A stretch of DNA of 59,797 nucleotides from Nitrosopelagicus sp. REDSEA-S31_B2 (GTDB lineage: Archaea; Thermoproteota; Nitrososphaeria; Nitrososphaerales; Nitrosopumilaceae), in assembly GCA_001627235.1 (NCBI GenBank), contig LUPB01000086.1:1-59797 (forward strand), written 5' to 3'. Position numbers and translations under genes: made by a program. Under the pieces are notes generated by a model that saw only the letters and a program-made list of their open reading frames with translations, was not told where the DNA came from and did no database searches. Positions 1 to 17,469 of this stretch are shown piece by piece (within the stretch, counting starts at the first letter, position 1; every line of letters starts with the position of its first letter).

Positions 1-12
1 TCTTCTGTAAAA

Positions 13-1263
13 ATGGCAAATGATGCAAATGTAAAATTATTAGATTACACAGTAGAGTTATTCAAAAACAACGGTCTGTTTAGTGATTATTATGGTTATC
101 ATAACGTTGATCATGAACTTGAAGTAACTTATGTAACATTACTTTCTGGTATTCAATCTCTAAAAGACGACTATCTAAATCTTGAAGATTTGAATTATCT
201 TTATGCTGCTGCACTACTACATGACTTTGATCCTAAAAAAGAAATTGATAAACCTCATGAAAAAAATGTCATTCAGTTTATTTCAAAAAATAAAACTATT
301 CAGAAACTTCTTGCAGCTGCAAAACTTGACCAAAATCTAATTTGTGCACTTATTTGTCGAACCGTATATCCTTGGAAAGGAGATATAGTTACAACCTCTG
401 AAAAGTTAATTGATAGTTATTTTGCAAAATCAAAAATTAAAAAGAACAAAAAACAACAGCAACATTTTCGTGAATTAGGTCATTTCTTGTCCGTCTCTGA
501 TAGGATTGGGGGTTATTCATTAGGTGATTTTCAAAAAGCAATGGAAATGGCAAAAATGAATGCTCATTCATCTAGTTGGCATCCTGCATTTATTGTAAGA
601 CGTTCTGTTGGATTTTTTGAAGACATGCTAAATTCTGAACCTGATATGTGTCAAAGAGTTCTAAATGGATTGCCAAAACACATGCGAAAAAACTTCCTAG
701 ATAACATTGTTGGATTTATGAAATTACGTCAAGAAGAAATCCAAATCTATAATCAATTTGTTTATGATGGATTACCACTTGTACCATCTATTGAAAAACA
801 TGCTGTAACTGATGATGTTGCAGATGTACTTCTATCAATCTATCGTGAACTCCCAAAACCATTACAATTCACACGTGATGATTTTATTGAATCCATAAAT
901 GATCCTGATACAATTCTTAACACTTTACGTGTAGGTAATTCTAAAGGTCCGATAGTTGGATTTGCAAAAGGAGGTCCATTAGAAAAATATCATTTTGATC
1001 TAGAATTTGAGGATAGAAATCGTGGAAAAAACAATACTGTCTTCTTAGAACCTGTTGCAATAAAAAATGGATATTGGGGATTTCATGGAGGTCGAGAAAT
1101 ACGACAATTATTCATGATGCAGGTTCAATCAAAGGGATACAAATTCATGACTAGTTTTGCAATGCGTGATGTTATAGACGAGCGAAAACAAAATGACAAA
1201 AATGTTGTATTTGTAAAAAAATTCAATCCTGAGCGATGGGATTATTTCAGAGTAACTCTATAG
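13..1263 (+). CDS. HD-domain protein with C-terminal GNAT-like domain (may be 5'-truncated by the window)
   Basis: YHNVDH...LLHDFD...SDRIG HD-superfamily residues; C-terminal FLEPVAIKNGYWGFHGGREI...GYKFM resembles GNAT motif A; frame is open to position 1. Confidence 0.7.
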   Translation: MANDANVKLLDYTVELFKNNGLFSDYYGYHNVDHELEVTYVTLLSGIQSLKDDYLNLEDLNYLYAAALLHDFDPKKEIDKPHEKNVIQFISKNKTIQKLLAAAKLDQNLICALICRTVYPWKGDIVTTSEKLIDSYFAKSKIKKNKKQQQHFRELGHFLSVSDRIGGYSLGDFQKAMEMAKMNAHSSSWHPAFIVRRSVGFFEDMLNSEPDMCQRVLNGLPKHMRKNFLDNIVGFMKLRQEEIQIYNQFVYDGLPLVPSIEKHAVTDDVADVLLSIYRELPKPLQFTRDDFIESINDPDTILNTLRVGNSKGPIVGFAKGGPLEKYHFDLEFEDRNRGKNNTVFLEPVAIKNGYWGFHGGREIRQLFMMQVQSKGYKFMTSFAMRDVIDERKQNDKNVVFVKKFNPERWDYFRVTL

Positions 1264-1270
1264 AAAATTA

Positions 1271-1498
1271 GTGACTGAAATAAAAATTCTAATTCAAAAG
1301 GGAACTGAAAATTTACGTGATGGTAACTTTGAAACTGCACTAAGTTTCATTGATCAAGCTTTACTTTTAGAGCCTGAAAACCCTGATTTGTGGAATCAAA
1401 AGGGCATTGCGTTAAGAAGTCTTGGACGGTATGATGAGGCATCTGATTGCTATAACAAATCTCTACAGTTGGATCCTCGTGATCGTGCTTCGTCCTAA
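1271..1498 (+). CDS. small tetratricopeptide-repeat protein
   Basis: Two TPR units (ALSFIDQALLLEPENPDLWNQKGIALRSLGRYDEA); GTG start. Confidence 0.85.
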   Translation: MTEIKILIQKGTENLRDGNFETALSFIDQALLLEPENPDLWNQKGIALRSLGRYDEASDCYNKSLQLDPRDRASS

Positions 1499-1728
1499 AT
1501 CTGATTTTGCTTTTTCTTTCCGTAAATTATCATTAAAACTCCAATTCCTATCACAGCAATTGATAATTTCTCTGCAGTGATATCTGAAGATGTAAAGTAC
1601 TTGAGAACAAATTCTGGTCCCCAAATCACTAAATTTTGCAATGGAATTATTGCCCCGCTAATGAAAAATAAAATACTAAATGCACCAAAAACGTTTTTTG
1701 GAAAAAAAGAAGAAGATTTTTCAGTCAA
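1495..1728 (-). CDS. small membrane protein, two predicted TM segments
   Basis: Two hydrophobic stretches and a basic C-terminal tail; fills the gap between neighbouring genes. Confidence 0.65.
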   Translation of the reverse strand: MTEKSSSFFPKNVFGAFSILFFISGAIIPLQNLVIWGPEFVLKYFTSSDITAEKLSIAVIGIGVLMIIYGKKKQNQI

Positions 1729-1734
1729 TTTACA

Positions 1735-2334
1735 CTAGTATCCACCTTTAACAAATTCATATTCTTTTTTGTTAAAGTCGAATTGTGTCACTAGCACTTC
1801 GCCCATTGCATCAACTGCAGTTTGTACCACATCGGGTTGTGTTGAGAAGAATCCTTTGAATTTTCCAATTCCATACTCTTCTGCGATTAAACCAATCGGT
1901 CCATCTGGTCCTCTTGTTACTACTGCCCATACTGTAGATAGTGGTGTTCCAACGCAACTCAGAACGACACAGCTGTCAGGTGTTTCTTGAGCCAAGTGTG
2001 GATTGTTGAAGTTTCCAATAACCCATGTTCTTGGAAGTTTTTTCATGAGTTTTAGGTATCTGTCCTTAACAAACTCATATCGCTTGTCTGTCTCAAATGA
2101 TGCAAGTAATGGGGCCGTATGTTTTGATGCATAGTTCTCAATCATTATGCTTAGTGCAAAAAGATCTGAACGGTCTGCTTTGAAGTTTAGATATCCTCCG
2201 TCTTGAAAGTCCTGAAAATTCCAGTTTACAAAAATCTCGTCACCTTGTTCGGCAACATCTCTTTTTTCAGGAAATCTTGCAAAGACTGTTTCAATCAAAC
2301 TGTCATTTGTTAAACCCATAATTTGTATTATCAT
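1735..2334 (-). CDS. stand-alone DICT sensory domain protein (start may be 2319)
   Basis: LFALSIMIENYA...LLASFE...RY..L...WAVV...LIAEE...FKGFFS.QPDVV follows the DICT pattern. Confidence 0.7.
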   Translation of the reverse strand: MIIQIMGLTNDSLIETVFARFPEKRDVAEQGDEIFVNWNFQDFQDGGYLNFKADRSDLFALSIMIENYASKHTAPLLASFETDKRYEFVKDRYLKLMKKLPRTWVIGNFNNPHLAQETPDSCVVLSCVGTPLSTVWAVVTRGPDGPIGLIAEEYGIGKFKGFFSTQPDVVQTAVDAMGEVLVTQFDFNKKEYEFVKGGY

Positions 2335-2377
2335 TTTGAATATTTAACCTAGTGGAAACTACCAATAATAGTGGTAA

Positions 2378-3229
2378 TTATTTCTTTTTTATAATTCTAG
2401 GAATCTGTTCTAATGCATGTGCATCAGTGATGAGTTTTCCATCAAATTTGAAATTTGTCTTTTCTGAAAATGCTTGACCCCCTATGAATATAGGTAATTT
2501 TTTGTATGATTCATGAATCTTTTTGACCATTCTTTGTCCTGACCTAACATTGTCCTCCAATGTTATTGATACAATTAGTGCATCTGGTTTGGCAGTTTTT
2601 ATGAACTCGATTAATGATTCGGCAGGTGTTGATGGAGATAAATTAAATGTTGTAAATCCTTTTGAGACTAAAAATGAATCAAGCACATTACAACCTAAAT
2701 TATGATCTTCACCAACTGGAGTGGTTAGCACAATTTTTCCTTTCTCTTTTTTTGCTTTTCTGTTTTCATCTGCTATCACTTTGACTAAACTATGTGCAAT
2801 ATTGCTTGCAACATGCTCTGTGGCAATTGATAACTTTCCTTCAGACCATAAATATCCAATTTCTGCCATAACTGGTGTCATAATTCTTTCATAAAATTGG
2901 TCCAAAGAATTGCTTGTAACAAAGGCGGTGTAAACATCCATTGTATCTTTTAGACTGCCTTCAGTTAATGCTGAGAATAATTTTGTTCTTAATTGTTCAA
3001 TTAGATTTTCCCGTTTTTCTCTATCTTTTGGAGTATTTTGTAGCAGAAATGAGTTTATTTTTGCATTTTCTCTAAATTCCTCAGGAATATCATCTCTAGT
3101 TACTGATGATGATTCTCCTAGGTATTTGATGGTCTCTTGTCTGGATGTCTTTTTTTCTTTATCCCAGGTACTTTTCACTAAATACAGGTAATCTACTCCT
3201 TTAACCTTCTTTTTTCTTAGATATACCAT
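2378..3229 (-). CDS. cobalamin-binding protein with CarH/LitR-like four-helix cap and Rossmann B12 domain; non-MerR basic N-terminal domain
   Basis: W-SEGKLSIAT-EH (W-x9-EH); E-D-H-NL-G-x41-SIT-x26-GG. Confidence 0.85.
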   Translation of the reverse strand: MVYLRKKKVKGVDYLYLVKSTWDKEKKTSRQETIKYLGESSSVTRDDIPEEFRENAKINSFLLQNTPKDREKRENLIEQLRTKLFSALTEGSLKDTMDVYTAFVTSNSLDQFYERIMTPVMAEIGYLWSEGKLSIATEHVASNIAHSLVKVIADENRKAKKEKGKIVLTTPVGEDHNLGCNVLDSFLVSKGFTTFNLSPSTPAESLIEFIKTAKPDALIVSITLEDNVRSGQRMVKKIHESYKKLPIFIGGQAFSEKTNFKFDGKLITDAHALEQIPRIIKKK

Positions 3230-3380
3230 GTTTTAGCATGTTCATAGTGACTAATAAGCATATCTAGTGCTAACTCTGATATTTTGTGCCTAAAAACACA
3301 AAAAATCATGAAAAACTAGTGATTTTAAATATTACCACTATGACGAAACTTAAAAGACGGATTGTCGACGTTTGTACTAG

Positions 3381-3653
3381 TTGGCAAGAGAAAAAAGAAC
3401 ACGTATTCAATTGTATTTCGATATTATCTCGGCGATAATACAAGAAGAGGATATCTCTCCAACAAGAATTCAGTTCAAATGCAATACCTCGTATGATAAA
3501 TTAATGAGATATTTGGAAGAAATGGAAAAACGTGAAATCATAGCCAAAAATGGTTCTATCGGTGTCACCGATAAAGGCAAAAAATTTCATAATGATTATT
3601 CAAAAATCAATGATCTAATATCTGAAATTAGTAAAACGATTACGGAAGAGTAA
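3381..3653 (+). CDS. archaeal winged-helix transcriptional regulator (HTH_45-like)
   Basis: KRTRIQLYFDII...PTRIQFKCNTSYDKLMRYLEEM...VTDKGKKF; TTG start; divergent from the B12 gene. Confidence 0.8.
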   Translation: MAREKRTRIQLYFDIISAIIQEEDISPTRIQFKCNTSYDKLMRYLEEMEKREIIAKNGSIGVTDKGKKFHNDYSKINDLISEISKTITEE

Positions 3654-4191
3654 ATAATTCAGTACCTTTCTCTTTTGTCTGAAATATTATTGCTTTATGA
3701 GATTCTAACAACTGATTCAAAAATCTGTCTCTCAGTTCCTCGTTAATTTGTTTAACCTCAAATGAACAAACAAAGTTTCCGTTAATTTTCTCAAAACCAT
3801 CGTCTACACACTGCTCAATTTCTGCCATTCGGTCAGTTTTCTCTTCAGTATTGAAGTCAAAGTAATGTGTTGATACAACCCTGATTTTGGCCTCTTCAGG
3901 CAAACCTTCTACTTTGTCTAGAATCATCTTTGAGTAATCCTCAAATTTCTCTGGGATTTCTACTATGTGTAGAAATTCATTGTTTTCTCCATCCTCGATT
4001 CCATGTGCTTTCATCTCTTCTAGGATTTTTTGAGGTTTTTGTGTAGTGTAGAAGCAGTGCTCGCCTTTCTCTAGTCCTTTTCTAATAAACCCATATTCTG
4101 TTTTTTTAGTCTCATCATTACCATCATGGAACAGCACCACATGTGTACGCTCTAACGTCTCGAGAAAATCCTCTGACTGAGTACTCATCAT
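3640..4191 (-). CDS. stand-alone MEDS domain protein
   Basis: HVVLFH...FIRKGLEKGEHCFY...EIEQ...FVCSF...LLESHKAII fits the MEDS pattern. Confidence 0.7.
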   Translation of the reverse strand: MMSTQSEDFLETLERTHVVLFHDGNDETKKTEYGFIRKGLEKGEHCFYTTQKPQKILEEMKAHGIEDGENNEFLHIVEIPEKFEDYSKMILDKVEGLPEEAKIRVVSTHYFDFNTEEKTDRMAEIEQCVDDGFEKINGNFVCSFEVKQINEELRDRFLNQLLESHKAIIFQTKEKGTELFTLP

Positions 4192-4295
4192 ATTTAGTAA
4201 TTTTTGGAGTATATATGAATCCCCTCACCTAAGTGAGTTTCTTGATTCCTACTGGTTATATACAAAATTTGCTTTTCTTAGTTTAGGTAACAAAT

Positions 4296-4454
4296 ATGTT
4301 AAAAGATCCAAAAGTCAACTGTGTATTCTGCAACAAGTCATTATATGACCACTCTAATTTCGAGAGTAGAGAATGTCTTTCAAAACATCTCCAAGTACAA
4401 AAAATCCTTCAAAATGCCATGGGCGAAGATGGGATAACCAACCACTTTTCTTAA
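4296..4454 (+). CDS. 52-aa putative zinc-binding microprotein (not in ORF track)
   Basis: Hand translation MLKDPKVNCVFCNKSLYDHSNFESRECLSKHLQVQKILQNAMGEDGITNHFS; CxxC-x6-H-x7-C; TTATATA about 35-40 bp upstream and T-rich tract downstream. Confidence 0.6.
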   Translation: MLKDPKVNCVFCNKSLYDHSNFESRECLSKHLQVQKILQNAMGEDGITNHFS

Positions 4455-4491
4455 TTTTTCTATTTTTTATAAAAAAAGAAAATTTTTGAAT

Positions 4492-5961
4492 TTATGAATA
4501 ATCTGTATTGTAGACCGGTCTTGCACCACTTGGTACTTCTGCACCAGCAGATTCCTTGACTGATTCTCCTCTTGCCTGGTAAACTCTGACTTTATGAAAT
4601 ACATTGTGTGATGAGAATATTGCCAGTCCTGCAATTCCCGCTCCTATGAAATTTCTTAATGTTACATCGATGCTTGGTTCTGTACCTATTATCGACATCT
4701 GGAATACAACGTAAAAATTGTCAAATAACCAAAATGCCAAAGTTACCCATGATAGCAATCCTCCAATAAGATAGCCTAGCCTTGCTTTTTGTCTTACAAA
4801 TAAAATTGCAAAAATAATTGCAACATACCAGATAAATGATCCAAATAACCATGATATCTCCCATACGTCTGTTCTATCGTCCATCCAGTAGTATGTGGAA
4901 CCAATTATTGCCATAGCGCAAAGTGAAATCAAAAGTAATTTTTGATTAACTTTGTAAGATGTTTTTTCTTCAGGTGTTTTTTCAATTGGTTTGAAAGCTA
5001 TTTGTTCTTCTCTTGCCTCTTTGATTGCTTCAGTCATATGTTTGAGATTTACCGGAACAAATTCTTCTACTGACTTGTCTTTTACATAAGAGTCGTGAAC
5101 TAAACTATCCACTAGTGGTCTTGCAAGTGATGCCTTTACTGGAGTAACCAAATCAATCCAGTATGATGATAATCTTGGTGTTAAAAATGGAATCTGTATG
5201 ATATTCAAATTTCTATTAATTATTGATGAATACAATCTCATCATTTGCTCGTATGTCATTTTATCTGGTCCACCAATCTCAAATATTTTTCCGGCCGTTG
5301 ATGGATTTTTCATAGCTCCGACTAGATAGTCTACAACATTTTCGACTGCAATTGGTTGTGTTGTAGATTTTACCCATCTTGGACAAACCATTAGTGGTAA
5401 TCTTTCAACAAGATATCGGAGCATTGCGTATGAACCCCCCTCTGCACCCACAATTACTGATGCTCTTAATTCTGTAACTGGAATGGTTCCTGATGCTAAA
5501 ATTTTGCCAACTTCGTGCCTACTTCTCATGTGTTTTGATAATTCTAAACTTTCGTTTACTAATCCTCCAAGATAGATTATTCTTTTTACTCCTGCGTTTT
5601 CAGCAGCTTTTAGAAAATTTTGTGCTTGAACTTTTTCTCTATCTGCAAATTGTTCCCATTCTTTTTTGGACCCTTCCATAGAATGTAGAAGGTAAAATGC
5701 AGTTTCTATTCCCTTGAATGCATTAGATAGTGTGTCCAACTCTAATGCATCAGCTGCCACAAATTTCACATTATCTGAATTTTGATGTAGTGTTCTTGAC
5801 ATCGCGGTAACTTTGTACCCTGTTTTGGATAACCTCTCGGTTAGTTTTTTTCCAATGAATCCTGTAGCCCCTGTTACTAAGATTGAATAATCACTGATTT
5901 TGGCACTTTCTTTTAATGCTGCCATTTTCTCTAAATTACTTGAACTTGCTTTCTGACTCAT
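4492..5961 (-). CDS. atypical SDR / NAD(P)-binding protein (YbjT-like) fused to a C-terminal multi-pass membrane domain
   Basis: VTGATGFIG Rossmann motif; YLLHSM, SKHMRSRHEVG, LRASVIVG, PFLTPRLSSYWIDLVT; about four hydrophobic C-terminal helices. Confidence 0.8.
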   Translation of the reverse strand: MSQKASSSNLEKMAALKESAKISDYSILVTGATGFIGKKLTERLSKTGYKVTAMSRTLHQNSDNVKFVAADALELDTLSNAFKGIETAFYLLHSMEGSKKEWEQFADREKVQAQNFLKAAENAGVKRIIYLGGLVNESLELSKHMRSRHEVGKILASGTIPVTELRASVIVGAEGGSYAMLRYLVERLPLMVCPRWVKSTTQPIAVENVVDYLVGAMKNPSTAGKIFEIGGPDKMTYEQMMRLYSSIINRNLNIIQIPFLTPRLSSYWIDLVTPVKASLARPLVDSLVHDSYVKDKSVEEFVPVNLKHMTEAIKEAREEQIAFKPIEKTPEEKTSYKVNQKLLLISLCAMAIIGSTYYWMDDRTDVWEISWLFGSFIWYVAIIFAILFVRQKARLGYLIGGLLSWVTLAFWLFDNFYVVFQMSIIGTEPSIDVTLRNFIGAGIAGLAIFSSHNVFHKVRVYQARGESVKESAGAEVPSGARPVYNTDYS

Positions 5962-5963
5962 TT

Positions 5964-6335
5964 TTACTCCTTGTCTAGTTTACGAAGTTCTTTAAGATCT
6001 ACAATCTCGATATCTTTACTCAAAGTAACTAGTGATGATAATTTTGGTTTTGCATTTTTGCCCATTTTTAGAACTAGCTTATCTTTGTGTAATATCTCAA
6101 GCGTTACATTCTCATTTTTTAGGACTTTGCCTATGTGTTTTGCTTCGGTTAGCTGTTTTAGTAGGCTCATTTTTCCAGGAATTTTTGTAGGAAGTCGCAT
6201 AATGTTTACTCGTCTTATATCTCCTTTTGAGGTAAATTCGATGGCTGTGCCATCTCCATCGCTAATGGTTAAATCTCCGCTTCGGAGGTAAAGTAAAAAA
6301 TTGGCAGGAAGGTTGTTTTTCATTTTCATATCCAT
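5964..6335 (-). CDS. hypothetical protein
   Basis: 123-aa ORF packed 2-6 bp from both neighbours on the same strand. Confidence 0.7.
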   Translation of the reverse strand: MDMKMKNNLPANFLLYLRSGDLTISDGDGTAIEFTSKGDIRRVNIMRLPTKIPGKMSLLKQLTEAKHIGKVLKNENVTLEILHKDKLVLKMGKNAKPKLSSLVTLSKDIEIVDLKELRKLDKE

Positions 6336-6341
6336 TCCTGT

Positions 6342-6530
6342 TTAGGTTTTTGTTGTTATAGTCAAGCCACCTGTTAGTACAACTGTTCCTGTTGAAACTT
6401 TCTTGCCGTTGCGGTCAACCATTCCACTAAGTTCTAACTTGTCGAACTTGTATGTAATGGCTGCATGCTTTGCAGTTAGTTTATCAAAAACTTCTGCCAG
6501 GAGACTTGCCCATTCTTGTTCTTCTGTCAT
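6342..6530 (-). CDS. hypothetical protein, first gene of the operon leading to the SDR fusion
   Basis: ATG at 6530 (MTEEQEW) preferred to the GTG at 6572, which runs into the motif-rich intergenic region. Confidence 0.6.
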   Translation of the reverse strand: MTEEQEWASLLAEVFDKLTAKHAAITYKFDKLELSGMVDRNGKKVSTGTVVLTGGLTITTKT

Positions 6531-6612
6531 AATGAATCTAATTACATTATAGTATAAAACGCTAGTGACCAAAGGTGAGTCTAGTGCCTAAATATTATCA
6601 CCATGTTCTGTA

Positions 6613-6633
6613 TAGTGGTAAAATTTACCACTA
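6613..6633. promoter_or_regulatory. perfect palindrome TAGTGGTAAA-A-TTTACCACTA, candidate operator between divergent operons
   Basis: 10-bp arms with 1-bp spacer read directly; further TAGTG copies at 6563, 6582 and 6643. Confidence 0.55.
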
Positions 6634-6664
6634 GAAATACCCTAGTGCATAACCCATAAATATT

Positions 6665-7267
6665 ATGAATGGCAAAAACTGTTTAATGAGCACAACACAA
6701 ACACTTCCAACAAAGATCGCATTGATAAAAGGTGGAATCGGGGCAGGCCTCATGGGCGGATTTGCACTCTTTTCATCATTCTTTGCAATTGATCAAATGT
6801 TGGATATACCGGCAGGAACATTCTACAAAACTATCGGTGTTACAATGGGTGTGGATGAAACTTCAGCAATTGCAGTGGGCTTTATAGCCCACATGGGCGT
6901 TGCAGCATTGATTGGAGCCATGTATTTTTTGGCTTCGAACATTTGGAGGTTCTTCAGATTGGTAACTGTTCCAAAAGCACTAATTACTGGTGTTTGGACA
7001 GGGCTAATTGTTTTCACATTAGCATTCCTACCAATTCACATGTTTGTAATGACTCCGATGATGGAGGTAGAATTGATTATCACCGATGTATCCCAATTTG
7101 ACTTGGAACAACAAAAAGCACTAGCTACCTTGTTGTATGAAAGCGACAAAATTTACATCAATGCTTTGGTTCTCCACATAATCTACGGAGCAATCACTGG
7201 ATTCATTGGAGGTTGCATAATGCATGAAGACTACAAAGGAGTGAAAAGAATTGGCAAAATCTGGTAA
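6665..7267 (+). CDS. multi-pass membrane protein with intramembrane histidines (start may be 6686)
   Basis: Four hydrophobic segments; GFIAHMG, LPIHMF, LVLHIIYG. Confidence 0.75.
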   Translation: MNGKNCLMSTTQTLPTKIALIKGGIGAGLMGGFALFSSFFAIDQMLDIPAGTFYKTIGVTMGVDETSAIAVGFIAHMGVAALIGAMYFLASNIWRFFRLVTVPKALITGVWTGLIVFTLAFLPIHMFVMTPMMEVELIITDVSQFDLEQQKALATLLYESDKIYINALVLHIIYGAITGFIGGCIMHEDYKGVKRIGKIW

Positions 7268-7622
7268 CAACAACGAAAGAGGTCAAAAACTTGAAGGTAT
7301 GTACAATACCTTCATGGGAGACGTTTCACAACTATTCCCAAAGACCGACTCAAACCTATTACTCAATGTAATGGCTTTGGAAAGAAAGTTCCCAGACATG
7401 ATGCCTCATGTTCACTTGGAGATAATCTTCAACAAAGGCACAGATGTCGAATTGCCAAAATATGAGATTACTGAAAAGTATCATGTTCAGGCTGCAGTTC
7501 ACCGATGGGACAAGAATATTCTTGTTGTCACCGGAATGATGAACGTAGACATTATTGCCGAAATAGCAGATCACAAAACTGTGGAAAAAATATCTGGCAC
7601 TGCTAACGCAGCCTTTTATTAA
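7251..7622 (+). CDS. hypothetical protein
   Basis: 123-aa ORF overlapping the previous stop region; followed by a T-rich tract. Confidence 0.7.
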   Translation: MAKSGNNNERGQKLEGMYNTFMGDVSQLFPKTDSNLLLNVMALERKFPDMMPHVHLEIIFNKGTDVELPKYEITEKYHVQAAVHRWDKNILVVTGMMNVDIIAEIADHKTVEKISGTANAAFY

Positions 7623-7688
7623 TCCCTTTTTTCTCTTTATTTTGAAATTTTAACTACTGTTATATTTGATCATTTTTGCCAAAATTTC

Positions 7689-8066
7689 ATGGTAAAAAAT
7701 ACTGAACTTGATAATTTAATTCAAAAAATTGGCAAACTTCACAAAAAAATCCGTTTTGTTGCAATTATCAACAAAAATGGCAAAATCCTAAAAACCGAAA
7801 TGAGAGATGAAGTACCTTCCCTACTCAAAACAAAAAATGAGGAAAAATTCTGTCAGGATGTAACAGTTCGCAGAAAGATGAGAGAGGAATTTGACAACTC
7901 TCTAGGTAAAGTTAGATTTGTAAATGTAGAGCGTGAAAATATTTCTCAAATCGTAATGTATGCAAAAACTAAATCTTTGTTTGTTACAGTAGAACCTGAA
8001 ATTTCAATTAACGATAAAACCAAAATCATATCCCAACTAAAAAAATTAACCGCTAATCTAAAATGA
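7689..8066 (+). CDS. thaumarchaeal roadblock/profilin-like family protein (DUF6659-like)
   Basis: KIRFVAIINKNGKI...MREEFDNSLGKVRFVNVERE pattern typical of this expanded family. Confidence 0.65.
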   Translation: MVKNTELDNLIQKIGKLHKKIRFVAIINKNGKILKTEMRDEVPSLLKTKNEEKFCQDVTVRRKMREEFDNSLGKVRFVNVERENISQIVMYAKTKSLFVTVEPEISINDKTKIISQLKKLTANLK

Positions 8067-8335
8067 AAATTCTAGTTGATGAGATGGATGATGGTATGGA
8101 TGAGCGCCTAATACAACTTGGTCATGATGCCTACAGTGTAAAAAAATTACGAAGTGAAGGCAAAAAACTCCATACTGATTATTCAGTCATTAATTACGCA
8201 AAAGAAAATGGTATGGTTCTGATTACTCGTGATACTGAGAGTGGTCAGGCATGCGAGGAAAATGATTTGCCCTGTATACTCCTAGATAATGAGGCAATAT
8301 TCAAAATTGTTACCGAAAAACTACAGAATTTTTAA
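8063..8335 (+). CDS. PIN-like protein (DUF5615 / Mut7-C N-terminal type)
   Basis: MKILVDEM...LGHDA...DYSVINYAKENGMVLITRD. Confidence 0.75.
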   Translation: MKILVDEMDDGMDERLIQLGHDAYSVKKLRSEGKKLHTDYSVINYAKENGMVLITRDTESGQACEENDLPCILLDNEAIFKIVTEKLQNF

Positions 8336-8371
8336 TCAAAGTTATTTATTCTCCCATTTCTAAAATTTTAT

Positions 8372-8626
8372 ATGAAATATTGTGATGGACGGGGAACCTC
8401 ATATCGAAATGGCAATTCTTATGAAGATTGCAAAAAGATTGCCGAAGACATCAATACTCGTTTGAAACCTATCATAAATGAAAAAGGCATACTTCCTTGG
8501 AAACAACTATCTGAAGAAGTTGAACATGATGAGTTAGTTTACAAACTGGTTCTAAAATATTTGAGACGAGACGGGTTTGATATTGGAACTTTTAACAACC
8601 CTCAAATCAGCGTGAAATCTAATTAG
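8372..8626 (+). CDS. hypothetical protein
   Basis: 84-aa ORF with upstream TTATTTA. Confidence 0.65.
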   Translation: MKYCDGRGTSYRNGNSYEDCKKIAEDINTRLKPIINEKGILPWKQLSEEVEHDELVYKLVLKYLRRDGFDIGTFNNPQISVKSN

Positions 8627-9431
8627 GATTAGTCTGAGATTTTATTATTCTTCTTGATATGAGAAATGGCGTCAAGATCAAAATCGGTATTGAAATAGCA
8701 ATGAACAGCGTTTGTAATTCTGTTATTGCAATTGTAAACGCAACTGCACTTGTTGCCCCTATGAACAATGACAAAAATGAACCCACGCACGTGGGGCATG
8801 CAATGAACAGTCCTGTTGTAGCACCAATACTTCCAAGACCTCCTGTCTTTTTGGTTACGGCAATTGCATTTACTGCAAGAGCAGTGTTTAATGCAACCAA
8901 ATATGAGACTACAATTTGCAATAATAGATTAATTGGTATTACGTTGAGACCCACATGCTCTGTCAAATATGCTACAAACTTTGGCATGTATCCTGGTGCT
9001 CCACAACATGGTGTTATGTGTGCCGAAGGAACATCTGCCCCATAATGATACGAAAATACAACTTCGGGCTGATATACCAAAATCCCTGATGTCATTGAGA
9101 AGAATATTCCATAAACTATGAACGTCACAACAAATGTTTTTTTTGCTCTACTGTCTAACGTGTTACTACAAATCATTGATAGGACTGTAGTATTTCCTGT
9201 AGCTGCAATTCTTTTCTGAAATTTACGTAAACCTATTCCAATCATTCCTATTGAAATTGTAAACAATACATAAAATCCCATTCCTAATCTCTCAATAGAT
9301 TGTACTGCATCTGGAGTGATGTCTTGACTTTCGAATCTAGAATAGATCAAAAATAAAATTGCAATTGATACAAATCCTAAAATGATTAATTTCTTGTCAT
9401 TTTGACCGCCCTTGGCAGTCTGTGTTTTCAT
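8619..9431 (-). CDS. multi-pass membrane protein with CC and CPTC motifs
   Basis: About six hydrophobic segments; TPCCG and IACPTCVG. Confidence 0.75.
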   Translation of the reverse strand: MKTQTAKGGQNDKKLIILGFVSIAILFLIYSRFESQDITPDAVQSIERLGMGFYVLFTISIGMIGIGLRKFQKRIAATGNTTVLSMICSNTLDSRAKKTFVVTFIVYGIFFSMTSGILVYQPEVVFSYHYGADVPSAHITPCCGAPGYMPKFVAYLTEHVGLNVIPINLLLQIVVSYLVALNTALAVNAIAVTKKTGGLGSIGATTGLFIACPTCVGSFLSLFIGATSAVAFTIAITELQTLFIAISIPILILTPFLISRRIIKSQTNPN

Positions 9432-9491
9432 GTGGGATCTCTTACTTGGTTCATTATATTTTTAACATATTATCTGCAACTTATTTTGAAT

Positions 9492-9923
9492 ATGGAAATT
9501 AATGAAGTTCAAGATCCTGATTATGAGGTTGTCACAATAAGTAATCTGGGGTTTGTTGATCCATATGGCAATGAGGGTCTTGTAATCTTGCACTCTGACG
9601 ATAAACGGGAATTTCACATGCGTGCATTTTCTGGTGAAGTCTCAAGGCATATTGCAAGTTTTCTAGATGGGGACCACGATACAGTTCCAACCATCTATAA
9701 AATGCTTGAAGATATATGTGAAGCAAATGAACTCTTGTTAGTCAAAGTAAAAATTTATGAAAGTGGAGATGCATTACGGGCAAATCTCTATCTTACTGGA
9801 AAAAAAGACATTGTTCTACGAAATTATCGTGCTTCTGACGCTGTGGCTCTTGCGGTATACTATAACATTCCAATTTTAGTTCGAAGTAATATGCTAAAAA
9901 GCCCAATAGAAGAGACTACGTAA
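9492..9923 (+). CDS. bifunctional nuclease family protein (DUF151)
   Basis: LLVKVKIYE...RANLYL...RASDAVALAVYYNIPILV; ATG 9492 preferred because the longer ORF overlaps the divergent gene. Confidence 0.75.
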   Translation: MEINEVQDPDYEVVTISNLGFVDPYGNEGLVILHSDDKREFHMRAFSGEVSRHIASFLDGDHDTVPTIYKMLEDICEANELLLVKVKIYESGDALRANLYLTGKKDIVLRNYRASDAVALAVYYNIPILVRSNMLKSPIEETT

Positions 9924-11007
9924 CTATCTCTTTGATTCTATCTTCTTCTACTGCACGTTTAATTTCCATTGCAATACGTCTACCAATTCCAAATGTAGTT
10001 CCATACTGATATTTGGTATACGGACTGGTTGTTGCAACAATTGGATTTCCTGGAACTCTCAATGATACATCATAGACAATCATTTCCAAATCTTTTGTAA
10101 TTACACTTTGTAGTGAAAATGGTCCAATTATTCCTGGGGCATATTCTTTTTTCACAGCACGAACAAATTTGTCTCCCATTTTGAAGACCTTCTCTAACAA
10201 TGACTCTCTAATACTTGCTGGTGTATGACCAACCTCTATATTTTGTAATGGAATGTCCATCTCTAACTGTTGTTTTGCAGGAAGTGCATTGTAATCATGA
10301 ATATTTGTCTGAAGGCGTCTTTCTATTCCAATAAAGTCCACTTGGTCTGAAATTGGTGTGTGAAAGAAGTTGAAATTTAGATATGTTCCAATTGCCAATT
10401 CCTCAATACTTGCTTTTTCCAAATCCTTTCTTGCTATGATTCCTTTTTTGATCTTCTCTTCTGACTTCTCTTTGTAATCTGCATATGATGTAACTGTGAA
10501 AAATGCCCGTTCTAGTTTTCTGTCCTTTTCCATGACTTTTACGATTGCCGGCTTGTTGATGGATTTTGGATTCTCAAATATTTTTGGGAATTTAACTCCC
10601 GCCTTTTTTAGTAAATAATACTGATTCCTCTTATTTTCTCTCTCTTCAGCTTGAAACAGCTTCCTATTTCCAAATATTGGAACCTTTAGCTTGTTTTCCA
10701 ATATGTCATATCCAAGATATGCAGTTAACGAGCGATGTGGAACGATGATGGTATTTTCATCTCTCATCATCTTTTGATTTGCAGGGCTTGCCATATCCTT
10801 GAATTTTTTGATAATCTTAATTTCATCTGCAATTCTATTGAATCTTTGATATGGTACTTCTCTGCCTTTTTGACAAAATACCATTGTCTCAAAATCTTCA
10901 TCCTTGGCCCCATCCATTATCTCTAGTGCTGAATGACTTCCAAGTACCCCGATTTTTGGATCTGTATATTCTGATGCAATCTTTTGCATCTCAGATCTCT
11001 TAATCAT
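9916..11007 (-). CDS. purP: formate-dependent AICAR formyltransferase (PurP family, ATP-grasp)
   Basis: IGVLGSHSALEIMDGAKDE; GHTPASIRESLLEKVF; IGPFSLQ; GRRIAMEIK. Confidence 0.88.
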   Translation of the reverse strand: MIKRSEMQKIASEYTDPKIGVLGSHSALEIMDGAKDEDFETMVFCQKGREVPYQRFNRIADEIKIIKKFKDMASPANQKMMRDENTIIVPHRSLTAYLGYDILENKLKVPIFGNRKLFQAEERENKRNQYYLLKKAGVKFPKIFENPKSINKPAIVKVMEKDRKLERAFFTVTSYADYKEKSEEKIKKGIIARKDLEKASIEELAIGTYLNFNFFHTPISDQVDFIGIERRLQTNIHDYNALPAKQQLEMDIPLQNIEVGHTPASIRESLLEKVFKMGDKFVRAVKKEYAPGIIGPFSLQSVITKDLEMIVYDVSLRVPGNPIVATTSPYTKYQYGTTFGIGRRIAMEIKRAVEEDRIKEIVT

Positions 11008-11081
11008 ATTGTATCGATTTGTCTTGTAAAATTAAATGCTTCTTTGGAAGAGTTTTCTACTTGTAATTTTCTAGTTAAATC

Positions 11082-11201
11082 ATGCAAGTTGAAATGGTTC
11101 TTGTTGGAATGATTCTATTTGGCGGTATGGTTGCAGCAGGTGTTAAGGTTTGGTTAAACAAAAGAAAAGAATCTGAGGAATTGGATGAAACCCACGCGTA
11201 A
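11082..11201 (+). CDS. 39-aa single-pass membrane microprotein (not in ORF track)
   Basis: Hand translation MQVEMVLVGMILFGGMVAAGVKVWLNKRKESEELDETHA. Confidence 0.5.
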   Translation: MQVEMVLVGMILFGGMVAAGVKVWLNKRKESEELDETHA

Positions 11202-11247
11202 ATTATCATATTCAGTTATATTTTGTAAAATTTGATCAAACAAGTAC

Positions 11248-11805
11248 ATGAAACTTGTAGTTGGAATCACTGGAAGTACTGGAGTCATTTATGGAATCCG
11301 CCTATTGGAGGTTCTAAAAGAAAAAGGAATTGAGACAAATCTTGTCATGTCTGAATGGGCAAAAAAATGTGTTCCAATGGAAACTAAACATGATATAGAA
11401 TATGTTGAATCTCTTGCCACTGAAGTGACAGATGAAAAAAACATGGCTGCAAATGTTTCAAGTGGAACTCACAAAACTGATGGAATGATTGTAATTCCGT
11501 GCACAATGAAAACACTTTCAAGTATTGCAAATGGTTATGATGAAACTTTAGTTGCCCGTGCTGCAGGAGTTACTATGAAAGAGGCTAGAAAGTTAATTCT
11601 AGTTGCAAGAGAAACACCTCTTACTGCCATAAATCTGGAAAATATGTTAAAACTCGCTAGACTTGGTATTGTAATTTTGCCTCCTGTCACTGAATTTTAT
11701 ACAAATCCTACATCGATAGACGCAATGGTTGATCACATTGTTGGAAAATGTCTTGATCAATTTGATATTGAACATGATCTATTTACTCGATGGGGAAGTA
11801 AATAG
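11248..11805 (+). CDS. ubiX: flavin prenyltransferase UbiX
   Basis: VVGITGSTGVIYG; SSG; PCTMKTLSSIANG; RAAGVTMKEARKLILVARETPL. Confidence 0.93.
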   Translation: MKLVVGITGSTGVIYGIRLLEVLKEKGIETNLVMSEWAKKCVPMETKHDIEYVESLATEVTDEKNMAANVSSGTHKTDGMIVIPCTMKTLSSIANGYDETLVARAAGVTMKEARKLILVARETPLTAINLENMLKLARLGIVILPPVTEFYTNPTSIDAMVDHIVGKCLDQFDIEHDLFTRWGSK

Positions 11806-11842
11806 CCCAAAAAAATTTACACTAGTTTTATTTTGAAAACTC

Positions 11843-12262
11843 ATGTTGAAGATAACTTTTGAACGTGAAATTAATGCCGATATTGAAAAATCATTCGAAG
11901 TGATGACAAATTTTGAAAACTTCCAAAAACTATTCCCTGATTATTATCCCTCTATTTTGATTAAATCTGTACGAGATGAAAGTTCTCTTGTGGCTGAACA
12001 TCTCAAACTTCACGATAAGGAATTCATAATCATGGCTAAACATTTTTTCTCTAAACCTAACACTCATGAGATGCGTGTTGTTGGGGGAGATATTAAAGGC
12101 AGTAGCATCAATGAAAATTTTACATCTGATAATGGTAAAACACATCTAAAAGTTAATGCAGAACTAGATGTCAAATCCTCACGCTTTTCAAAGAAAAATC
12201 CATACGGAGAATCCTTAACTGAATTATACGACAAAATGATTAAAGAAATAGAAAAATCCTAA
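11843..12262 (+). CDS. SRPBCC/START-fold protein
   Basis: FEREINADIEKSFEVMTNFENFQKLFP N-terminal pattern. Confidence 0.7.
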   Translation: MLKITFEREINADIEKSFEVMTNFENFQKLFPDYYPSILIKSVRDESSLVAEHLKLHDKEFIIMAKHFFSKPNTHEMRVVGGDIKGSSINENFTSDNGKTHLKVNAELDVKSSRFSKKNPYGESLTELYDKMIKEIEKS

Positions 12263-15313: not shown

Positions 15314-17469
15314 GTTTCCAAGAACATGAAAAATTGCACATTGAAAAAAATGTTAAACGAGAACTAACTACTACTGAATCACAAATCCTTGCAGCAGAAT
15401 GGTCTGAACACTGTTCATACAAGTCCTCAAAGCAACATCTCAAGATGTTACCGACGACAGGTCCAAATGTTATTGTAGAGAAAGGATATGATTCCGGTGT
15501 TTTAGATGTTGGCGATGGTTATGTAGTAACTGTTCACATTGAAAGTCATAACCATCCTTCTGCTGTAGAGCCCTTTGGTGGGGCTGCAACTGGTGTTGGT
15601 GGTGTCATTCGTGATATTCTATCTGCAGGTACCAGACCAATTGCACTATTTGACGGATTACGATTTGGAAATATAGAAACTGATTCACATGCTAGATGGT
15701 TATTCAAAAATGCAGTTGCAGGAATTGCAGATTATGGAAATTGTCTTGGCATTCCCACTATTGGTGGTGAAGTTGAATTTGATGAATGCTACAAAAATTA
15801 TGCTCTAGTAGATGTTGCTGCAGTTGGTTTTGGAAAAAAATCAAAATTAATTAAAAACCATGCAAACATTGGTGATTTAGTTATTCTCATAGGAGGTTCT
15901 ACTGGTCGTGATGGTGTTGGTGGTTCTCAATTTGCATCTGATGCATTAGAAGGTGAAGACCGTTCTGCAGTACAAATTCCGGATCCTTTCATTGAAAAAT
16001 TAATCATTGAAGCAATTTTGGAATGCCGTGATCAAAACTGCATCAATGCAATGAAAGATTTAGGCGGTGGAGGATTATCTTGTGCTATATCTGAAACCGC
16101 TGAAAGTTTAGGAATTGGTATTGAATTAGATGTAAAAAATGTACATTTACGTGAGTCTGATTTGGCACCTGAAGAAATTATGATATCTGAATCTCAAGAA
16201 AGAATGCTTGTTATTGCCAGTCCAGACAATCTTTCCAAAATTAACAGTATCTGTGACAAATTTAGAATCCAATGTTCCGTTCTTGGTAAAGTAAAAGAAG
16301 ACAAAATGATGCATGTTAAAAATGGAAATGAAACTATTGCATTACTTCCTGCTGACTTTGTAGCACGAGGGCCCCTAATCTCTAGAGAGAAATCAAAACC
16401 AAAATACCTTTCAAATTTACCTGTGGCTCCTGAGCCACAAAACAATCTGTCTTTCACAGACGTATTGCTGAAATTACTTTCTTCTCCAAATATTGCAAGT
16501 AAACATTGGGTATATCGTCAATATGATCATGAAGTTGGAATTAGAACCGTGATTAAACCTGGATATGACAGCTCAGTATTACGTCTGGATAATGGAAAAT
16601 CATTATCTGTAAAAATAGATGGTAATCCGAAGCATTGTTACCTGAATCCTAGACAGGGAGCAATTGGTTGTTTTGAAGAAGCATGTAGAAATGTTGTATG
16701 TACTGGCGCTACTCCGATAGGAATGGTTGATCATTTGCAATTTGGAAATCCTGAGGATCCTGAAATATTTTGGACATTCATGGAGTCTATTGAAGGAATC
16801 ACGGATTTTGCAAAATCTCTAAACATACCATGTGTTGGTGGTAAAGTAAGCTTCTATAACGAAACTAATGACGGTCCAATAAAACCAACTCCATTAATAG
16901 GCGTACTTGGATTAATTGACAGTTCTCCTCTCCATCCTAATCCCCCTTCAGAAAATGATGTAATTTTATTGATTGGTGAAACCAAAGATGAACTTGGTGG
17001 TTCTGAATATTATGAATACATTCACAATTTTGTTGGTGGCACCGCTCCTTCTGTAGATGTATCTAATTCAAAGAAAAACATGGAATCTGTTTTGTCGTTA
17101 ATTTCAGAAAATCTTGTCAAAACTGCACATGATTGTTCAAAAGGCGGTTTGGCAATAGCAATATCTGAATTATGTATCTTTGGAAAAGTTGGTTGCCATG
17201 TAAATCTAAACAAAGTATCAACATTGTCCACTGAAAAAATTCTATTTTCTGAAAGTCATTCAAGGTATATTCTTGTTATAGAAAAAAGCAAATTAGATTC
17301 TGTAAAAAATATCTTATCTGAAAAAAATTGTTCATTTTCAGAACTTGGAATATTTACTAGCGATCAAATTATCTTTGAATCTGATTCTAACCCTGTTTTG
17401 GAACTAATAGTTGATAAAGCAGAAAATAATTATCTAAATTCATTGGGGAAGATAATTCAAAATGGTTAA
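15310..17469 (+). CDS. purL: FGAM synthase subunit PurL
   Basis: WSEHCSYKSS; ESHNHPSAVEPFGGAATGVGG; SESQERM. Confidence 0.97.
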   Translation: MSFQEHEKLHIEKNVKRELTTTESQILAAEWSEHCSYKSSKQHLKMLPTTGPNVIVEKGYDSGVLDVGDGYVVTVHIESHNHPSAVEPFGGAATGVGGVIRDILSAGTRPIALFDGLRFGNIETDSHARWLFKNAVAGIADYGNCLGIPTIGGEVEFDECYKNYALVDVAAVGFGKKSKLIKNHANIGDLVILIGGSTGRDGVGGSQFASDALEGEDRSAVQIPDPFIEKLIIEAILECRDQNCINAMKDLGGGGLSCAISETAESLGIGIELDVKNVHLRESDLAPEEIMISESQERMLVIASPDNLSKINSICDKFRIQCSVLGKVKEDKMMHVKNGNETIALLPADFVARGPLISREKSKPKYLSNLPVAPEPQNNLSFTDVLLKLLSSPNIASKHWVYRQYDHEVGIRTVIKPGYDSSVLRLDNGKSLSVKIDGNPKHCYLNPRQGAIGCFEEACRNVVCTGATPIGMVDHLQFGNPEDPEIFWTFMESIEGITDFAKSLNIPCVGGKVSFYNETNDGPIKPTPLIGVLGLIDSSPLHPNPPSENDVILLIGETKDELGGSEYYEYIHNFVGGTAPSVDVSNSKKNMESVLSLISENLVKTAHDCSKGGLAIAISELCIFGKVGCHVNLNKVSTLSTEKILFSESHSRYILVIEKSKLDSVKNILSEKNCSFSELGIFTSDQIIFESDSNPVLELIVDKAENNYLNSLGKIIQNG

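What the first reader, a model, noticed from the sequence alone, without database searches (positions are those of the whole stretch)
1735..7622. Candidate B12-dependent light- or redox-sensing island in an ammonia-oxidising archaeon
Seen: within about 6 kb lie a DICT protein, a CarH-signature B12 protein, a divergent winged-helix regulator, a MEDS protein, a zinc microprotein, a three-gene operon ending in an SDR-membrane fusion and a divergent two-gene operon, with a TAGTG motif repeated in three intergenic regions. Established: CarH/LitR proteins use adenosylcobalamin as a chromophore; marine AOA synthesise cobalamin and are photoinhibited. Inference: these genes form one regulon in which B12 state or light controls membrane and redox effectors, with no carotenoid or photolyase gene in the window.
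Basis: partly seen in the sequence, partly recalled or inferred. Interest (0 to 1): 0.8.

Follow-up and report, generated by a model that had tools for sequence, protein, structure and literature searches.

The report
Archaeal B12 light-switch gene island
In a marine ammonia-oxidising archaeon, four promoters of one gene cluster share a conserved DNA box, and the cluster encodes a predicted vitamin-B12-binding regulator that likely holds these genes off in the dark and releases them in light, which would give a testable handle on how these light-inhibited nitrifiers sense sunlight.

Summary
The genes and the motif are real. The 283-aa protein has the CarH upper- and lower-ligand motifs (Wx9EH, ExHxxG) and fold, but a three-stranded beta head shared with IS1634 transposases instead of MerR. 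'TAGTG' is the reverse of a 10-bp box, TTAGCACTAG. In relatives it occurs as a pair 19 bp apart, touching the TATA box. The pair is in 66 of 89 family genomes with the regulator and 3 of 112 without; the reversed control is in 0 of 201. Box pairs lie before the regulator, DICT, the SDR operon and (inverted) the divergent two-gene operon. DICT, the SDR and photolyase occur almost only in genomes with the regulator, and four deep-type genomes lack all of them. It is not one regulon: wHTH-MEDS-zinc protein forms a second module with its own palindrome, and in three other genomes a light-blind regulator paralog sits beside the wHTH. Photolyase promoters rarely carry the pair, and the exact gene order is genus-level. 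Light sensing is inferred, not shown. This scan reported the regulator and operator before on other DNA; I found no paper on it.

The parts
1495..1728 (-). 77-aa two-helix membrane protein, 6 bp behind DICT; likely co-transcribed with it
   Evidence: within about 8 kb of the regulator in 11 of 60 regions
1735..2319 (-). Stand-alone DICT-like protein (194 aa from the likely start; ORF extends to 2334); predicted regulon target
   Evidence: weak Pfam DICT hit; Atlas neighbours at 0.98 carry DICT in 28% of members; in 24 of 201 genomes, 23 of them with the regulator
2341..2377 (-). Operator pair TTACCACTAT-N9-TTTCCACTAG followed by TATA (TTAAATA) before DICT
   Evidence: same pair in five genus relatives
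2378..3229 (-). 283-aa regulator: three-stranded beta head (about residues 1-40) plus CarH-type four-helix cap and Rossmann B12 domain (G125xxW128, E138-H139, E174-x-H176-xx-G179)
3244..3293 (-). Autoregulatory boxes TTAGCACTAG and TTAGTCACTAT flanking the likely TATA (TTATTAG), plus a weak third box upstream
   Evidence: box pair before 43 of 57 regulator genes examined
3332..3341 (+). Single box TTACCACTAT before the wHTH gene
   Evidence: single boxes before 3 of 9 wHTH genes, no pairs
3381..3653 (+). 90-aa winged-helix protein (HTH_45, Sso10a-like); likely binder of the second, palindromic site
   Evidence: beside MEDS in all 10 genomes with a close MEDS ortholog
3640..4191 (-). 183-aa stand-alone MEDS sensor-domain protein, convergent with and overlapping the wHTH gene
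   Evidence: Pfam MEDS 34.6 bits, over cut-off 29.8
4224..4237 (.). Palindrome CTCACCTAAGTGAG between MEDS and the zinc protein, just upstream of the likely MEDS TATA: second operator type
   Evidence: only exact copy in the own genome; pattern in 9 of 201 genomes, 7 of them at MEDS/wHTH loci; reversed control in 3 of 201
4296..4454 (+). 52-aa Cys/His microprotein, divergent from MEDS
   Evidence: no box pair in 5 of 5 copies
4492..5961 (-). 489-aa atypical SDR (NmrA/epimerase-like NAD(P) fold) with three C-terminal membrane helices; last gene of a three-gene operon
   Evidence: full-length in 66 of 201 genomes, 65 of them with the regulator; near the regulator in 30 of 60 regions
5964..6335 (-). 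123-aa protein of no known family, middle of the SDR operon
6342..6530 (-). 62-aa protein of no known family, first gene of the SDR operon (ORF extends to 6572)
6553..6621 (-). Boxes TTACCACTAT, TAGGCACTAG and TTGGTCACTAG, then TATA (TTTTATA); the spacer of the pair (ACTCACC...) resembles half of the second palindrome
6625..6662 (+). Inverted box pair TTACCACTAG-N7-CTAGTGCATAA, then TATA (ATAAATA), before the divergent operon
   Evidence: same layout at one other promoter of the own genome and before this gene in genus relatives
6686..7267 (+). 193-aa four-helix membrane protein with invariant His69 and His164 (distant DUF6789 lead); ORF extends to 6665
7251..7622 (+). 123-aa soluble protein with a conserved PHV motif, overlapping the membrane-protein gene
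   Evidence: behind a box pair in 6 of 16 copies

Best explanation
The island centres on a CarH-type regulator that likely binds adenosylcobalamin, likely sits on paired 10-bp boxes over the TFB-binding position next to TATA in the dark, and would let go when light breaks the cobalt-carbon bond, switching on its own gene, DICT, the SDR operon and the membrane-protein operon. Shown: the B12 motifs, the predicted fold, the conserved boxes, their place against TATA and their co-occurrence with the gene. Inferred: DNA binding by the beta head, repression, and light as the trigger. The wHTH, MEDS and zinc genes are a second, inserted module: the wHTH likely binds the palindrome CTCACC-N2-GGTGAG and takes its signal from MEDS. 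The two modules appear cross-wired at some promoters. The targets are likely photo-oxidative protection proteins rather than carotenoid enzymes.
For: W128, E138, H139 and H176 are all kept in 58 of 60 aligned homologs. The alignment-based model (pLDDT 89.9) matches experimentally light-sensing B12 domains best: photocobilin Z 22.6, rmsd 1.9 A over 203 residues; CarH Z 18.6; methionine synthase Z 17.7 (Foldseek agrees). The head is a basic three-strand sheet, the best-conserved part of the family, and its profile hits the N-terminus of an IS1634 transposase (E 8e-10). A matrix trained only on other genera puts 4 of the 6 best pair hits of the 1.0-Mb genome in this island; simulated genomes give 1-2 hits over the same threshold. 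51 of 63 distinct pairs are followed within 0-1 bp by a TATA-like word. The exact pair pattern is in 66 of 89 genomes with the regulator and 3 of 112 without, reversed control 0 of 201; sites away from the regulator gene are in 33 genomes, 31 with the regulator (hand-listed). CPD photolyase: 25 of 89 against 2 of 112; DICT 23 against 1; full SDR 65 against 1. Photolyase, pyrimidine-dimer glycosylase and an FAD oxidoreductase recur within about 8 kb of the regulator. In the genus, 9 of 9 genomes of the window's amoA clade have the regulator, against 2 of 7 in the sister clade; the four genomes with only a divergent, V-type-like ATPase (a deep-water WCB marker in PMC7490402) lack regulator, motif, DICT, SDR and photolyase. 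The own genome encodes CobS and a cobalamin adenosyltransferase.
Against: No binding, photochemistry or light-dependent expression was tested. 64 of 89 regulator genomes have no CPD photolyase, so the regulator is far more widespread than UV repair. Only 1 of 21 photolyase genes and 2 of 7 glycosylase genes lie behind a pair; the genus's own photolyases and the own genome's DPRP gene have no box. The GxxxP part of the SignatureFinder motif is SxxxP here (G in 18 of 60). Two genomes of the likely deep amoA clade carry a divergent regulator with the motif. In two genus relatives the cassette lies apart from the regulator with no box pair. Genomes are kin, so the co-occurrence counts overstate. 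The motif was first seen before the regulator gene, which makes part of the co-occurrence circular.
Confidence: 0.55

Rival explanations
1. The same regulator and operator, but the signal is cobalamin status or chemistry (AdoCbl supply, oxidation, nitric oxide), or a partner protein, and not light. The regulon would be a general oxidative or nitrosative stress response.
For: The regulator is in 89 of 201 genomes, 64 of them without CPD photolyase; photolyase promoters rarely carry the pair. PMC7490402 (passage) notes an NO-cobalamin interaction in stressed AOA. A class II LitR acts as effector of a separate LOV photoreceptor (PMC9758184, abstract start only). AerR and AppA folds also match (Z 17.5 and 17.2).
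Against: The Wx9EH upper-ligand motif, described as crucial for photoreceptor activity (PMC9304148, passage), is kept in 58 of 60 homologs and lost only in second paralogs. The best structural matches are proven photoreceptors. 25 of 27 photolyase genomes have the regulator.
Confidence: 0.25
2. One reading: all island genes form one regulon, with B12, DICT, MEDS and wHTH proteins acting together as one sensing unit.
For: Photoreceptor-type B12 domains are fused to MEDS and listed with DICT in other proteins (PMC11796333, section 12). All 10 close MEDS orthologs are in regulator genomes. Single boxes lie before 3 of 9 wHTH and 3 of 11 MEDS genes. The order MEDS-wHTH-B12 recurs in a second genus.
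Against: No box pair before any of 9 wHTH, 11 MEDS or 5 zinc-protein genes. MEDS has its own palindrome. wHTH-MEDS is absent from the island in one close relative, flipped in others, and unlinked from the regulator in four genus genomes. 79 of 89 regulator genomes have no close MEDS ortholog.
Confidence: 0.1
3. The boxes are an activating element or a special BRE read by an alternative TFB (or by the B12 protein acting as an activator), not a repressor operator.
For: The second box sits exactly where the BRE lies (BRE position is recalled knowledge). TFB paralogs are frequent neighbours (19 regions), and 6 of 33 lie behind a pair.
Against: A BRE is a single element, whereas these are paired boxes at 19-20 bp, or inverted. 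In this genus the second box lies on or downstream of the likely TATA of the regulator's own promoter. The motif tracks the regulator gene across genomes.
Confidence: 0.1

Closest known systems
CarH / class I LitR (Thermus thermophilus CarH, PDB 5C8D/5C8E; Myxococcus and Bacillus homologs)
   Same: Four-helix cap with Wx9EH plus Rossmann domain with ExHxxG; N-terminal DNA-binding module; tandem direct-repeat sites over the core promoter; autoregulation.
   Different: No MerR winged helix: a three-strand beta head instead. Boxes are 10 bp at a 19-20 bp period, or inverted, against 11-bp tandem TnnACA repeats (PMC9304148, passage). Archaeal TATA/BRE promoters. No phytoene synthase in 5 of 5 genomes searched. 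No His after the Trp. NCBIfam CarH score 65.5 against a cut-off of 400.
Photocobilins (SasPcob 8J2W/8J2X, AbDPcob 8J2Y; PMC10979010)
   Same: Best structural match of the B12 module (Z 22.6), with the same Trp, Glu-His and lower His.
   Different: No C-terminal biliverdin-binding globin domain and no enzyme output; has a DNA-binding-like head.
Myxococcal CarH/CarA pair (PMC9304148)
   Same: A duplicated paralog that lost the Wx9EH motif but kept the DNA-binding domain also occurs here, in three genomes.
   Different: The blind paralogs sit divergent from a wHTH (plus MEDS, or fused to a receiver domain) with a palindrome upstream; no CarS-type antirepressor was looked for.
IS1634-family transposase N-terminal domain
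   Same: A profile of the 55-aa head matches residues 1-41 of a 526-aa IS1634 transposase (E 8e-10).
   Different: No DDE domain; the same head also occurs on HNH-type and other proteins, so it is a mobile module, not a transposon.

Membership tests
CarH / class I LitR | Wx9EH upper-ligand motif in the four-helix cap | tested here: met
   W128, E138, H139; all kept with H176 in 58 of 60 homologs
CarH / class I LitR | D/ExHxxG lower-ligand motif and Rossmann B12 fold | tested here: met
   E174-D-H176-N-L-G179; model matches 5C8D at Z 18.6, rmsd 2.9 A over 201 residues
CarH / class I LitR | SignatureFinder GxxxP element | tested here: inconclusive
   S198xxxP202 in the window; P in 58 of 60, G in 18 of 60; which TtCarH residues the paper means is my reading
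CarH / class I LitR | N-terminal MerR winged-helix domain with RxWERRY | tested here: not met
   No MerR Pfam hit; residues 2-39 are three strands at pLDDT about 90; NCBIfam CarH covers only residues 77-231
CarH / class I LitR | Operator of tandem 11-bp TnnACA direct repeats | tested here: not met
   Conserved site is TT(A/G)(G/C)CA(C/T)TA(G/T) at a 19-20 bp period
CarH / class I LitR | AdoCbl-dependent, light-released DNA binding | not testable with these tools
   needs purified protein
Photocobilin | C-terminal globin-fold biliverdin-binding domain | tested here: not met
   The protein ends after the Rossmann domain; alignments cover only residues 7-213 of the 329-aa 8J2W chain
Methyltransferase corrinoid proteins (MtaC/MtbC, the label some databases give it) | NCBIfam equivalog score | tested here: not met
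   33-54 bits against cut-offs of 215-450
DICT domain (PF10069), protein at 1735-2319 | Pfam gathering score or fold | tested here: inconclusive
MEDS domain (PF14417), protein at 3640-4191 | Pfam gathering score | tested here: met
   34.6 bits against 29.8
IS1634 transposase | DDE catalytic domain | tested here: not met
   No transposase family hit for the 283-aa protein; only the head is shared

The most novel reading that the evidence does not exclude
Marine ammonia-oxidising archaea run a two-input photoprotection circuit built from undescribed parts: an AdoCbl photoreceptor-repressor with a transposase-type beta head, cross-wired to a wHTH-MEDS (or wHTH-receiver) sensor that in some lineages drives a light-blind copy of the repressor, an archaeal parallel to CarH/CarA. 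Its main outputs would be a His-bearing membrane protein, a stand-alone DICT protein and a structured small RNA, a carotenoid-free way of coping with sunlight that helps set how shallow nitrification can go.
Probability: 0.3. Interest if true: 0.85.

Novelty: new variant of a known kind. Interest (0 to 1): 0.72.

Why it matters
Light inhibition is thought to keep marine nitrification out of sunlit water, yet I found no light sensor or light regulon described for ammonia-oxidising archaea in the searches listed. This gives a named protein, a defined operator and a short target list, in a family with cultured members that makes its own B12. It would extend B12 photoreception to archaeal TATA/BRE promoters with a different DNA-binding domain, and it offers marker transcripts for light exposure in ocean metatranscriptomes, including possible artefacts from bringing deep samples on deck.

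Tried and rejected
Complex prediction of the regulator with DICT gave no answer (score 0.00); it is evidence neither way. The single-sequence model was poor (pLDDT 50) and was replaced by the alignment-based one. The head was not folded alone, so the fold searches say nothing about its fold; profile searches of PDB sequences with the head, DICT and 123-aa alignments found nothing useful. My guess that DICT is the biliverdin domain of a split photocobilin was dropped: that domain is a globin (PMC10979010, passage). RNA: contigs of eight metatranscriptome runs from seven studies cover parts of the island. In six runs the contigs over the membrane-protein operon and DICT are far deeper than those over the regulator or MEDS (run X16: 3712 and 214-722 against 3.6 and 19), while X1 and X2 are flat. 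The runs were chosen for holding this stretch, the tool states that contig depth cannot rank genes, and no light metadata were shown, so this is a lead only. Rfam found nothing in window 1-12000 or at the candidate small RNA. MEDS proteins in general do not track the regulator (20 of 89 against 27 of 112). No phytoene synthase in 5 of 5 genomes; no CPD photolyase, pyrimidine-dimer glycosylase or DUF1722 in the own genome, which is 85% complete. PMC5069720 and PMC5241685 (passages) gave nothing on these genes. The 167-of-201 tally includes methionine synthase hits; I counted only the 89 genomes with E at or below 1e-43, and scored one genome with a broken copy (G038) as negative.


Full report
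Origin and observation. Close relatives of the central protein (94-95% identical) are titled Candidatus Nitrosopelagicus, and the own genome has amoA, so the window comes from a marine ammonia-oxidising archaeon. B12-binding, HTH_45, MEDS and SDR hits pass their Pfam cut-offs; DICT and the zinc protein do not. TAGTG/CACTA is about twenty times enriched in the three intergenic regions (11 against 0.52).

The regulator. The 283-aa protein has G125xxW128, E138-H139 and E174-x-H176-xx-G179. W, E, H and H are all kept in 58 of 60 aligned homologs. These are the motifs tied to light sensing in PMC9304148 and PMC11796333 (passages read); the GxxxP element is SxxxP here. The alignment-based model (pLDDT 89.9) matches photocobilins, a Chloracidobacterium MerR-B12 domain and CarH ahead of methionine synthase (Z 22.6, 20.9, 18.6 and 17.7). 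Residues 2-39 form three strands, not a MerR helix-turn-helix. A profile of this head finds 760 representatives, among them the N-terminus of an IS1634 transposase and HNH-type proteins, and more distant proteins with the same head plus a CarH-like domain. DNA binding by the head is inferred. The gene is in 89 of 201 family genomes, in 3 of 6 genomes of two other families of the order, and in none of 64 genomes of nine further families of the class.

The operator. Upstream of the gene in other genera lies TTAGCACTAG-N9-TTAGCATTAG followed directly by TATA; 51 of 63 distinct pairs touch a TATA-like word. A matrix trained without the window's genus gave seven hits of at least 17 bits in the own genome; four of the best six are in the island (regulator twice, DICT, SDR operon), and three simulated genomes gave 1-2 hits each. 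The divergent operon has an inverted pair, also seen before a zinc-protein/FAD-oxidoreductase operon of the own genome. An exact pair pattern is in 69 of 201 genomes: 66 of 89 with the regulator and 3 of 112 without (one has a broken regulator right behind the site, one is 71% complete); the reversed control is in none. Of eight housekeeping control families in the same loci (73 genes), two cysS genes lay behind a pair and the rest did not. The position over the BRE, and on or past TATA in this genus's autoregulatory promoter, favours repression (inference; BRE position recalled).

Is it an island? In 60 regions around regulator copies the SDR was within about 8 kb in 30, DICT in 12, the two small SDR-operon genes in 11 and 10, the 123-aa protein in 8, wHTH in 6, the membrane protein in 5, MEDS in 4 and the zinc protein in 3. 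The full order is confined to part of the genus, with the wHTH flipped in several relatives and wHTH-MEDS-zinc missing in one (the loci may repeat G-handle genomes, so I do not add them). Other genera hold shuffled, larger clusters with the same genes plus photolyase, pyrimidine-dimer glycosylase, DUF1722, an FAD oxidoreductase, a 2OG oxygenase and TFB, and many box pairs. In G116 and G199 the cassette lies away from the regulator and has no pair. So the island is a reduced, genus-level version of a family-wide gene neighbourhood.

A second module. wHTH and MEDS are adjacent in all 10 genomes with a close MEDS ortholog. They and the zinc gene have no box pair. The palindrome CTCACC-N2-GGTGAG is in 9 of 201 genomes, 7 of them at these loci, against 3 of 201 for the control; one-mismatch copies lie at the other three loci. 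In G127, G102 and G051 a second regulator copy has lost W and EH, faces away from a wHTH and has a palindrome-like site upstream; in G051 that wHTH is fused to a receiver domain. This suggests the wHTH reads the palindrome and takes a signal from MEDS or a phosphorelay (inference). Single B12-type boxes before some MEDS and wHTH genes, and a palindrome half inside the SDR-operon pair, suggest cross-wiring.

Light or not. For: photolyase is in 25 of 89 genomes with the regulator and 2 of 112 without. The genus splits into two supported amoA clades: 9 of 9 in the window's clade have the regulator, 2 of 7 in the other. Four of the latter have only an ATPase A at 55-56% identity, which fits the V-type ATPase of deep WCB (PMC7490402, passage; not typed against a reference), and lack every part. 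PMC4839502 (passage) reports photolyases in epipelagic but not mesopelagic populations. Against: most regulator genomes have no photolyase, photolyase promoters seldom carry the pair (1 of 21), two genomes of the second clade keep a divergent regulator, one A-type genome (G086) lacks it, and two genomes with both ATPase types have it. Kin are not independent. RNA contigs from seven studies cover island genes but cannot rank them or show a light response.

What is known. Ten full-text searches listed no paper on this regulator, its motif or a light regulon in these archaea; 'Nitrosopumilus + CarH + cobalamin' gave 0 papers. I read passages of PMC10979010, PMC9304148, PMC4839502, PMC7490402, PMC5069720, PMC5241685, 10.1101/175141 and 10.1101/2021.01.19.427344; passages, section 12 and a supplement search of PMC11796333 (no archaeal names; its online network of 1,561 sequences was not visible and may include these proteins); passages and a supplement search of PMC13591554; and only the abstract start of PMC9758184. 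Most subscription journals are not in the library, and the supplement of 10.1101/175141 was not seen. Earlier notes of this scan describe the same regulator and operator on other genomes; they are unchecked leads, and every claim above rests on my own calls. A word search of those notes for the wHTH-MEDS palindrome and paralog returned nothing.

Verdict. A real, conserved regulon with a CarH-like sensor that fails CarH membership on the DNA-binding domain and the operator: a new variant of a known kind. My odds: the protein binds these boxes 0.85; it uses AdoCbl 0.85; light is the main trigger about 0.65; it represses about 0.8; the whole account about 0.55.

Noticed in passing
L165:250-480 (-), own genome G000:C33 about 15880-16070: The second-best operator pair of the genome plus TATA precedes two tandem 48-bp copies of a GC-rich hairpin (RNA fold z -5.6). 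Operator and hairpin (one or two copies) are kept in six other genus genomes; in G024 the hairpin remains but the operator is gone. No Rfam hit. Candidate regulated small RNA.
   Followed up: partly
L166:1-2130, L167:989-1270, L168 (own genome C14, C36, C77): Further likely regulon members outside the window: a secreted-type protein/2OG-oxygenase operon, a zinc-protein/FAD-oxidoreductase operon, and a 139-aa/312-aa gene pair behind the best-scoring site.
   Followed up: partly
L048:7552-8412, L111:5092-5964, L088:7890-8714: Second regulator copies that lost the Trp and Glu-His of the light-sensing motif but kept the beta head; each faces away from a wHTH, one of which is fused to a receiver domain.
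   Followed up: partly
window 6686-7622 and 1735-2319: In six of eight metatranscriptome runs the contigs over these genes are far deeper than those over neighbours; contig depth cannot rank genes, so raw reads are needed.
   Followed up: partly
L035:8012-8422 and L036 (139-aa ORF next to the regulator): A stand-alone copy of the SDR's C-terminal membrane part sits at the island's position in two genus genomes that lack the rest there; similar short copies occur in three genomes without the regulator.
   Followed up: no
L094:9593-14183 and L095:2114-6546: Where the cassette is unlinked from the regulator it lies next to what look like (from the translations, not scanned) methylmalonyl-CoA mutase, its B12-binding subunit, MeaB and epimerase genes, the cell's main AdoCbl users.
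   Followed up: no
G024:C3 and G116:C20: Two genus genomes carry both an A-type-like and a divergent V-type-like ATPase A subunit.
   Followed up: no
window 13-1263: 416-aa protein with no Pfam or NCBIfam hit; by eye an HD-like N-terminal part (YHNxxH...HD) joined to a GNAT-like C-terminal part; kept beside the island in the genus.
   Followed up: no
P0234, P0219, P0227, P0248, P0207: The same beta head occurs on HNH-type proteins, on a 362-aa protein and on a family of about 170-185-aa proteins of no known family.
   Followed up: partly
L087 (G038): A broken regulator copy still has an intact operator pair upstream.
   Followed up: no
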